From positions 66,340,001 to 66,404,000 of the forward strand of contig OX597826.1 of assembly GCA_951406725.2 (NCBI GenBank): a stretch of 64,000 nt of DNA. The letters are read 5' to 3'. This stretch comes from Octopus vulgaris. Lineage: Eukaryota. Below, piece after piece: positions 55,681-56,590 of this stretch; position 1 is the first letter of the stretch, and each line of letters begins with the position of its first letter. Below the pieces are notes generated by a model that had not been told where the DNA came from, ran no database searches, and saw only the letters and a program-made list of their open reading frames with translations. The position numbers were made by a program, and so were the translations under genes.

Positions 55681-56590
55681 TGGAGAGTTTACGAAAAAAA
55701 CAAAAGATGAAGACAGGTGGTGTACAAAACAGACAGATGTATTAGTATAACGCTCAGGAATAGAAAAAGTGTTTTACGTTTCGAGCCTACGCTCTTCTAC
55801 AGAAAGGGACACAGAAAAAACAAGGAGAGAAAAAAATATTTGTAGTGGCTAACGATCTATCATGGCGACTGACCTTTTTTGAAAATGACTAAACAGAGGT
55901 TAATGAACGGCTGAAAGCAGTGGGAAGGAAGTAGGCGAAGGTATTGTTTTAGGCGATGGTGAAGAGTGAGGAGGTAGGATTTGTAGTCCGGCATGGTGGA
56001 ATAACAAGGAGGAGAAAGAAAAAAGAAAAAAAACGAGAATAAATAAATAATTAAATAAATAAATAAAAAGCAAAAACCAAAAAATGAAAAATAATAAGAA
56101 GAAAAAGGCGTGAGGAGAAGAAAAAATATGCAAGGTGGGAGAAGAAAATAAAATAAAATATATGCAAGGTGGGAGAAGAAAATAAAATAAAATATATGCA
56201 AGGTGGGGGAAGAAAATAAAATAAAAATAAAAACGATGAAGATGGAACAAATAGAGAGAAAGTGGAGAGAAAGGGAGAAGAGAAGATGAGGAGAGAAAAG
56301 AAACGGAGGGAGGCAAAATAACGAGTGCAGACTAGAGAAAACAGAGTAAGGACATCCAGAGAAGGAAGAGACGACAAAAGGAAAGACCAGAAAATACAGG
56401 AAACTTTATATATATATAGGGAGAATTTACAAAAAAGCAAAAGACGAAGACAGGTGGTGTAGACAACAAACATATGTATTAGTATAACGCTCGGGGAGTG
56501 AAAAAAGTCTTTAACGTTTCGAGGCTACGCTCTTCCACAGAAAGAAACAAGGAGAGAAAATAAAGAATATGTAGTGGCTAGCGATCTATC
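55681..56590 (-). mobile_element. Family F element with two LTR-like direct repeats, each carrying a variant HHR (55771-55806 and 56509-56544)
   Basis: 55681-55862 is repeated at 56418-56590; HHR spacing 738 bp; cores CTGTAGA and CTGTGGA. Confidence 0.78.

What the first reader, a model, noticed from the sequence alone, without database searches (positions are those of the whole stretch)
55681..56590. Two tandem HHR-bearing repeats 738 bp apart with a family-wide non-canonical CUGUNGA core
Seen: all four family F copies in the window have T at core position 6 (CTGTAGA, CTGTGGA twice, CTGTCGA), while stems I and II and GAAA-CG-TH are largely retained. Established: A6 is highly conserved in hammerheads. 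Inference: either a natural active A6U variant or a family that amplified after losing catalysis. Paired motifs would excise a ~738-nt monomer able to circularise.
Basis: partly seen in the sequence, partly recalled or inferred. Interest (0 to 1): 0.72.

Follow-up and report, generated by a model that had tools for sequence, protein, structure and literature searches.

The report
Jumping-gene hammerhead with altered catalytic core
An abundant animal repeat, likely the end piece of a Penelope-type jumping gene, carries a hammerhead self-cutting RNA motif with a U where nearly all hammerheads have an A, so it likely cuts poorly or not at all, and the two copies here are decayed ends of a likely internally deleted element rather than a circle-making unit.

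Summary
Observation confirmed. All 4 of 4 copies have U at core position 6, and the tandem pair's cut sites lie 738 nt apart. In other animals' motifs of the same class, A6 holds in 117 of 120. Contigs from four public runs (three organism labels) show a very abundant family, about 3,000-13,000 times deeper than the spacer. Position 7 varies between subfamilies, while no change at position 6 is among the 40 rows shown (124 hidden). The ~180-bp TA-flanked unit matches the minimal hammerhead of Penelope-like (PLE) terminal repeats. The spacer is a pyrimidine-rich leader plus a truncated 44-codon ORF start. The locus is therefore likely an internally deleted PLE, not a tandem retrozyme. Each of the two motifs also has its own stem break. 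Published scans show low activity for CUGA-turn mutants, and PLE insertion in vitro needs no cleavage. Best reading: A6U fixed in a master element that kept spreading with a crippled ribozyme; a slow or protein-assisted active variant is not excluded. The 738-nt circle is unsupported. The scan noted other PLE core variants in other genomes, none with A6U. New variant of a known kind.

The parts
55682..55861 (-). Family F copy F1 (likely downstream pLTR / 3' end of a Penelope-like element), ends in (TA)n at about 55667-55681
55771..55806 (-). F1 minimal type-I hammerhead-like motif: C3 55802, U6 55799, N7=A 55798, extra A 55795, stem II 55794-55783, GAAA, CG, U16.1 55776, H17 55775; stem I only 3 U-A pairs (private C-C at pair 4)
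   Evidence: row 55771
55861..55872 (.). 12-bp junction block also found at 56891-56902 in the neighbouring repeat G
55860..55994 (-). Truncated 44-codon ORF start (ATG in CCACCATG context, stop at 55860-55862); 65% identical over residues 1-40 to unnamed protein P0002, which continues past the break; likely a PLE ORF N-terminus (not proven)
   Evidence: table 8
55995..56407 (-). Pyrimidine-rich leader (likely 5' UTR, possibly with an intron) with a short three-fold internal repeat
56419..56590 (-). Family F copy F2 (likely upstream pLTR); short (TA)n at about 56408-56418 on its 3' side, (TATC)n at about 56585-56700 on its 5' side
56508..56545 (-). F2 hammerhead-like motif: C3 56540, U6 56537, N7=G, H17=U 56513; stem I 5 bp; stem II broken at pair 4 (private C-C)
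   Evidence: row 56524
30233..30413 (-). Solo family F copy F3, U6 at 30351, both stems intact, between (TA)n tracts
45649..45798 (+). Solo family F copy F4, U6 at 45684, N7=C, followed by (TA)n
40041..40143 (+). Copy of a sister family: core CCGACGA (A6 kept, U4C), compensatory G-C pair in stem I
56701..57039 (+). Neighbouring repeat G, head to head with F2 across the (TATC)n tract; not similar to F by blastn; identity unresolved

Best explanation
Family F is a very abundant ~180-bp TA-flanked repeat whose hammerhead motif has U at core position 6; it is likely the terminal repeat (pLTR) of a Neptune-type Penelope-like retrotransposon whose master copy likely fixed A6U and kept spreading with a ribozyme predicted to cut slowly or not at all. 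Steps: (1, shown) the motif has the minimal PLE hammerhead anatomy and U6. (2, indirect) U6 is the majority letter in several subfamilies and three organism labels, so it predates their spread. (3, inferred from published mutagenesis) A6U disrupts the CUGA turn and lowers cleavage by a large factor. (4, inferred from an in vitro PLE system) the element's RT/GIY-YIG protein primes at nicked (TA)n DNA and copies uncleaved RNA from an internal start about 90 nt behind the motif, so cleavage is dispensable, and 5' truncation leaves mostly solo pLTRs. (5, inferred) the tandem pair is pLTR - leader - first 44 codons - pLTR, an internally deleted non-autonomous copy that has since decayed and would not release a 738-nt circle at any useful rate.
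For: Anatomy fits the published metazoan PLE consensus (U-rich, CUGANGAH, G..C stem II, GAAAN, palindrome, NUH; PMC4209133). Same-class motifs sit behind an RT ORF in L042. A canonical-core hammerhead sits in both pLTRs of a full TA-flanked RT + GIY-YIG element in L120, with the same pLTR-leader-ORF-pLTR-(TA)n layout. Depth ratio of repeat core to ORF start is 3411, 2646, 6633 and 13110 in the four runs. Position 7 changes in 11, 32, 21 and 51% of depth, while position 6 is not among the 40 rows shown, all of which reach 44% or more in some run. Two loose-end consensus rows read CTGTGGA (table 7). All CUGA-region single and double mutants but the C3-G8 swap had low activity (PMC9901934). A6C cut over 10,000-fold slower in Mg than in Mn at 0.3 mM (PMC7151607). 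Hammerhead mutants did not affect PLE insertion in vitro (PMC11167929). Naiad PLEs spread without canonical hammerheads (PMC8557442). F1 and F2 each have a private stem break.
Against: No activity was measured, and no rate for A6U itself was seen in any paper read. The free variation at N7, with the other core and stem positions apparently constant among subfamilies, and the compensatory stem I pair in the sister family, look like continuing selection on the fold. The position-6 share is not printed: 124 rows are hidden and the ranking rule is my inference, so a minority of A6 copies up to about 44% cannot be excluded. The PLE identity of the ORF start is not proven: P0002 aligns to two colinear N-terminal motifs of the L120 protein, but neither beats shuffles (277 and 64 of 1000), and Pfam, PDB and Atlas gave nothing. 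No autonomous partner with RT was seen next to a U6 motif. The ORF-start/pLTR junction recurs in diverged contigs (table 8), so the deleted form was itself copied at least a few times.
Confidence: 0.6

Rival explanations
1. U6 is a working natural variant: the motif still self-cleaves at a biologically useful rate as a dimer, helped by the element's protein or by a metal such as Mn, and is under purifying selection in the master elements.
For: N7 takes all four letters across copies and subfamilies while U6 and the other core positions appear constant. Stem I has a compensatory pair in the sister family. A natural A6C hammerhead is rescued by Mn (PMC7151607). The anole PLE hammerhead cleaves only with protein (PMC11167929). 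Another CUGA-turn change, U4C, is carried by 44 of 120 same-class motifs.
Against: No second-site rescue of CUGA-turn mutants in a full pairwise scan of one type III hammerhead (PMC9901934). A6 is kept in 117 of 120 same-class motifs. Minimal PLE hammerheads are already weak with a perfect core (PMC4209133). A few subfamily founders can give this pattern without selection.
Confidence: 0.22
2. The fold is kept for a non-catalytic job (a binding site for the element's protein, or a promoter or 3'-end signal overlapping the motif), so position 6 was free to change while the stems and GAAA stayed fixed.
For: Stems pair in 38 of 40 cells. A second block behind the motif (GAGCG) is shared by family F and the sister family and is predicted to pair with the 3' strand of stem II (probability 0.13, 0.76, 0.37, 0.0 in the four F copies and 0.83 in the sister copy). 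PLE protein binds RNA near the motif in the anole element (PMC11167929).
Against: No binding data. The predicted alternative helix is inconsistent among copies. This overlaps the best explanation and cannot be told from it by sequence alone.
Confidence: 0.12
3. The pair is a retrozyme-like unit that releases a ~738-nt RNA which circularises.
For: Two motifs in the same orientation with cut sites 738 nt apart. The palindromic ACGU permits a dimer helix III in principle. The junction recurs in other contigs (table 8). Animal retrozymes are reported to derive from PLE pLTRs (bioRxiv 10.64898/2026.07.22.740005).
Against: One spacer only, not a tandem array. Described animal retrozymes are ~170-400 nt with canonical type I hammerheads (PMC7229834). 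Both motifs have U6 and a private stem break, and the swapped stem I of a dimer has a C-C mismatch on one side. The copies are 89% alike, so the pair is old.
Confidence: 0.06

Closest known systems
Minimal type-I hammerheads in pLTRs of Penelope-like elements (Cervera & de la Pena 2014, PMC4209133)
   Same: U-rich 5' flank, extra nucleotide after A9, G10.1-C11.1 pair, palindromic 15.2-16.2, short stem I, mostly single dispersed copies.
   Different: U instead of A at position 6; stem II is 4 bp. The paper's named core variant is U3-A8, and its descriptor would miss this family.
Neptune-clade PLEs (Craig et al. 2021, PMC8557442; L120 as a worked example)
   Same: Microsatellite targets, pLTR-leader-ORF-pLTR layout, hammerhead near the 3' end, head-to-head neighbour.
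   Different: No RT or GIY-YIG at this locus; ORF cut after about 41 codons; clade assignment inferred from layout only.
Natural A6C hammerhead of phage Bcep176 (PMC3088659, PMC7151607)
   Same: Natural substitution at core position 6.
   Different: C rather than U; a single phage sequence with measured low Mg activity and Mn rescue, against a family of about 1e5 copies with no measurement.
Animal non-LTR retrozymes (PMC7229834; bioRxiv 10.64898/2026.07.22.740005)
   Same: Non-autonomous, PLE-related, two type-I motifs in tandem.
   Different: Those are 170-400-nt tandem units with complete hammerheads and proven circles; this is one 738-nt interval with an ORF remnant and two defective motifs.
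Naiad/Chlamys PLEs lacking canonical hammerheads (PMC8557442)
   Same: PLE success at very high copy number in (TA)n without a canonical ribozyme.
   Different: Family F keeps the whole fold except one core base; the remnant ORF start does not look like an N-terminal GIY-YIG (not formally tested).

Membership tests
Hammerhead ribozyme (type I, minimal PLE form) | Core C3 U4 G5 A6 N7 G8 A9 | tested here: not met
   U6 in 4 of 4 copies; the other five fixed positions match
Hammerhead ribozyme (type I, minimal PLE form) | G12 A13 A14 A15.1, U16.1, H17 | tested here: met
   4 of 4 copies
Hammerhead ribozyme (type I, minimal PLE form) | Stem II with G10.1-C11.1 and an extra nucleotide after A9 | tested here: met
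   4 bp in 3 of 4 copies, 3 bp in F2
Hammerhead ribozyme (type I, minimal PLE form) | Stem I of 3-5 bp and palindromic helix III | tested here: met
   3 bp in F1, 4-5 bp in the others; ACGU palindrome. ViennaRNA gives stem I near zero probability in monomers, as expected for a dimer-dependent motif
Hammerhead ribozyme (type I, minimal PLE form) | Site-specific self-cleavage after H17 | not testable with these tools
   Only contigs were available
Penelope-like element, Neptune type | RT plus C-terminal GIY-YIG ORF with CxxC linker | tested here: not met
   Only a 44-codon ORF start at this locus; expected for a deleted copy; autonomous partner not found
Penelope-like element, Neptune type | ORF start homologous to PLE N-termini | tested here: inconclusive
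   P0002 aligns colinearly to two N-terminal motifs of the L120 protein, not significant against shuffles
Penelope-like element, Neptune type | Direct terminal repeats with a hammerhead near the 3' end, solo copies in excess | tested here: met
   F2 and F1 flank leader and ORF start; depth ratio above 2,600 in all four runs
Penelope-like element, Neptune type | Insertion into microsatellites | tested here: met
   4 of 4 copies end in (TA)n
Non-LTR retrozyme | Tandem 170-400-nt units each with a complete hammerhead | tested here: not met
   One 738-nt interval, both motifs non-canonical and stem-damaged
Non-LTR retrozyme | Accumulating circular RNA | not testable with these tools
   No raw RNA reads offered

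The most novel reading that the evidence does not exclude
An animal retrotransposon lineage has run for millions of years, across several species and about 1e5 copies, on a hammerhead with a CUGU turn that still cleaves when its own protein or a metal such as Mn rescues it. It would be the first A6U natural ribozyme, and its internally deleted pLTR-to-pLTR form would be a retrozyme caught at birth that yields a ~738-nt circle.
Probability: 0.15. Interest if true: 0.7.

Novelty: new variant of a known kind. Interest (0 to 1): 0.4.

Why it matters
Whether the hammerheads in Penelope-like elements do anything for the element is an open question (PMC8557442 raises parasitism; PMC11167929 finds cleavage dispensable in vitro). 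A lineage that fixed a change in the catalytic turn and still reached very high copy number is a natural test of that question. If U6 is dead, it shows in vivo that cleavage is dispensable. If it is alive, it widens the hammerhead core consensus and points to protein-assisted catalysis. Either way, descriptor searches that demand CUGANGA miss this abundant family. The specific 738-bp locus is a decayed copy and matters little by itself.

Tried and rejected
No own genome is held, so a direct genome-wide count at position 6 was not possible. Rfam gave no hammerhead match at gathering or E<=10; the miRNA-family hits are TA microsatellites. The exact family F motif was found in neither viral contigs nor genome contigs; no metagenome locus matched F beyond the core. 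No RNA holder was listed on record; run X9 is only guessed to be RNA, so expression is neither shown nor excluded. No start or end pile-ups were reported (table 6), which contigs cannot show. 'Goes back' joints of 728-803 nt among the 15 shown occur in DNA runs and not in X9; I read them as cross-mapping between F1 and F2, not circles. Depth does not drop across the cut site (table 2); this also holds for canonical PLE pLTRs, so it does not discriminate. Protein searches: the 44-aa ORF found no longer homologue; P0002 found only itself and has no name; no Pfam, PDB or Atlas hit; P0001 is a repetitive false hit. A forced double-hammerhead fold costs 24 kcal/mol over the free fold, but there was no canonical control, so I give it no weight. 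An alternative register with U as an insertion (CUG-U-AGAA) was rejected because it would break C3-G8 and the varying base would no longer be N7. Repeat G shows no convincing ORF in six frames. The Craig 2021 supplement holds none of the four family F or junction motifs searched. Literature searches for A6U listed no hammerhead A6U paper; octopus + Penelope searches listed none on this family. Lunse et al. 2017 on PLE hammerhead variants could not be read, nor could the supplement of PMC7229834 or one file of PMC4209133; any of these may already list U6 or U4C variants.

Full report
Observation. The window is AT-rich animal DNA dense in microsatellites. It resembles octopus DNA to me; that is a recalled impression and was not tested. 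Four copies of a ~180-bp repeat are present: F1 55682-55861(-), F2 56419-56590(-), F3 30233-30413(-) and F4 45649-45798(+). All end in (TA)n. Each holds CUG-U-N-GA, an extra A, a 4-bp stem II, GAAA, CG, U and H; N7 is A, G, G and C. The predicted cut sites of F2 and F1 are 738 nt apart. The register is secure because the varying base falls at N7 and the extra A after A9 is a described trait of PLE hammerheads (PMC4209133). The copies are 82-89% alike, F1 and F2 89%. F1 has a C-C mismatch in stem I and F2 one in stem II.

Is U6 unusual? A6 was present in 117 of 120, U6 in 2 and C6 in 1; U4C was present in 44 of 120. One of the two U6 hits lies in a GC-rich contig with long ORFs and is probably chance. 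So position 6 is strongly held in this motif class elsewhere, but family-wide changes in the CUGA turn do occur at position 4. These loci fall into a few families and are not independent.

Is U6 family-wide? No genome is held. Twenty listed runs under five organism labels hold part of the stretch; I laid 4 of the 24 listed runs, all contigs, at 80% likeness. Summed depth over the repeat core exceeds depth over the ORF start by 3411, 2646, 6633 and 13110 times. Dividing by the depth of a contig identical to this locus gives roughly 1e5 copies of the repeat and tens of the spacer in run X1. The tool warns that depth is no copy number, but 4 copies in 64 kb is the same order for a genome of a few Gb. 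The variant table shows 40 rows and hides 124. Position 7 (55798) changes to U in 11, 32, 21 and 51% of depth. Position 6 (55799, 56537) is not shown. Every shown row reaches 44% or more in at least one run (12 rows computed, the rest read by eye), so I infer that no other letter reaches that share at position 6 in any run. In particular the U7 subfamily cannot be mainly CUGAUGA, or the adjacent row would appear. Two loose-end consensus rows read CTGTGGA. This is indirect, and a minority of A6 copies is not excluded. The same table shows that the stem breaks of F1 and F2 are private (83-92% and 93-99% of depth carry the pairing letter).

What the pair is. Read on the minus strand, the locus is F2, a short TA run, about 410 nt of pyrimidine-rich leader, an ATG in CCACCATG context, 44 codons, and F1. 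The peptide matches unnamed protein P0002 at 65% over residues 1-40 (E 1.2e-7), and P0002 runs on past the break. Diverged contigs from all four runs align over this ORF and stop at 55993-55997, at the ATG (table 8). Some cross the ORF/F1 junction with 12-14% differences, so the deleted form exists at other loci. A full RT + GIY-YIG element fetched as L120 has the same layout: pLTR with hammerhead, leader, 1006-codon frame, pLTR, (TA)n. In L042 a same-class canonical motif lies behind an RT ORF. P0002 aligns to two N-terminal motifs of the L120 protein in the right order, but neither alignment is significant (277 and 64 of 1000 shuffles as high). The PLE assignment therefore rests on motif class, layout, targets and copy-number skew, and is likely rather than shown.

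How it likely works. In the one PLE reconstituted in vitro, the protein nicks AT-rich DNA and starts reverse transcription inside the RNA; hammerhead mutants do not change insertion, the ribozyme cuts only with protein, and no reads ended at the cut site (PMC11167929, main text read). That element is of the Poseidon clade, so transfer to this family is an inference. In a full pairwise scan of a type III hammerhead, all single and double mutants of the CUGA region except the C3-G8 swap had low activity (PMC9901934, passages). The natural A6C variant is slow in Mg and rescued by Mn (PMC7151607, abstract to methods read; PMC3088659, passages). Minimal PLE hammerheads are weak even with a perfect core (PMC4209133, results and discussion read). 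[quoted passage not shown] Together these favour a master element that fixed A6U, lost most cleavage and spread anyway (0.6).

Against this. N7 takes all four letters while no other core or stem position appears among the high-share subfamily changes. The sister family at 40041-40143 keeps A6, has U4C and swaps a stem I pair from C-G to G-C. Both fit ongoing selection on the fold, either for slow or protein-assisted cleavage (0.22) or for a non-catalytic role (0.12). With five sequences the covariation is not significant (197 of 500 shuffles). The circle reading (0.06) lacks tandem units, has two damaged motifs, and falls outside the 170-400-nt range of described animal retrozymes (PMC7229834, passages; bioRxiv 10.64898/2026.07.22.740005, first part and passages).

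Novelty. Searches for A6U with hammerhead or Penelope, for natural core variants and for octopus PLEs listed no report of a U6 family. PMC6765202, PMC12192606 and PMC11014351 were seen as passages only and mention none in those passages. Lunse et al. 2017, the paper most likely to list PLE hammerhead variants, could not be read, nor could some supplements, so the absence is not firm. The scan's index has no look-alike of this sequence and no A6U note; it has two notes on other PLE core variants in other genomes. I rate this a new variant of a known kind: the element class and motif class are known; a lineage-wide change in the catalytic turn at this copy number is uncommon and directly testable. 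Interest 0.4.

Noticed in passing
window 40041-40143 (+): Sister family copy with core CCGACGA (U4C, A6 kept), same stem II base, compensatory stem I pair and the same downstream GAGCG block; a second non-canonical core in the same genome.
   Followed up: partly
L001-L119 (metagenome contigs): U4C (CCGANGA) in 44 of 120 same-class hammerhead motifs, nearly all in one repeat family; a family-wide CUGA-turn change in another animal group.
   Followed up: partly
window 56701-57039 (+): Repeat G lies head to head with F2 across a (TATC)n tract, has a degenerate stem-loop followed by GTAA-CG that resembles the second half of a hammerhead, and shares a 12-bp block (56891-56902) with the ORF/F1 junction (55861-55872). 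Depth near 55868-55898 suggests many F copies extend into this block.
   Followed up: partly
window 62371-62670: Element with 69-bp inverted repeats (88% alike) enclosing a tRNA-like stretch and a canonical CTGATGA hammerhead-like motif at 62464(-).
   Followed up: no
F copies, about 25 nt behind the cut site: A conserved GAGCG block can pair with the 3' strand of stem II and would switch the hammerhead off; predicted in 4 of 5 copies at probabilities 0.13-0.83.
   Followed up: partly
window 55799-55815 (-) and the same place in F3, F4: TTTCTGT occurs twice about 12 nt apart, just upstream of and within the core; U6 could have arisen by copying from this short direct repeat.
   Followed up: no
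L120:1-3620: A complete TA-flanked Penelope-like element (RT, GIY-YIG, two hammerhead pLTRs) sits in a contig filed as a bacterial MAG; likely animal host contamination.
   Followed up: partly
window 33722-37430: Array of about 86-bp period with G-rich skew (family D11).
   Followed up: no
window 38197-38565 (-): ORF fragment that resembles a Tc1/mariner transposase (recalled likeness, not tested).
   Followed up: no
window 63125-63196 (-): tRNA-like Rfam hit (35.5 bits), possibly a SINE head.
   Followed up: no
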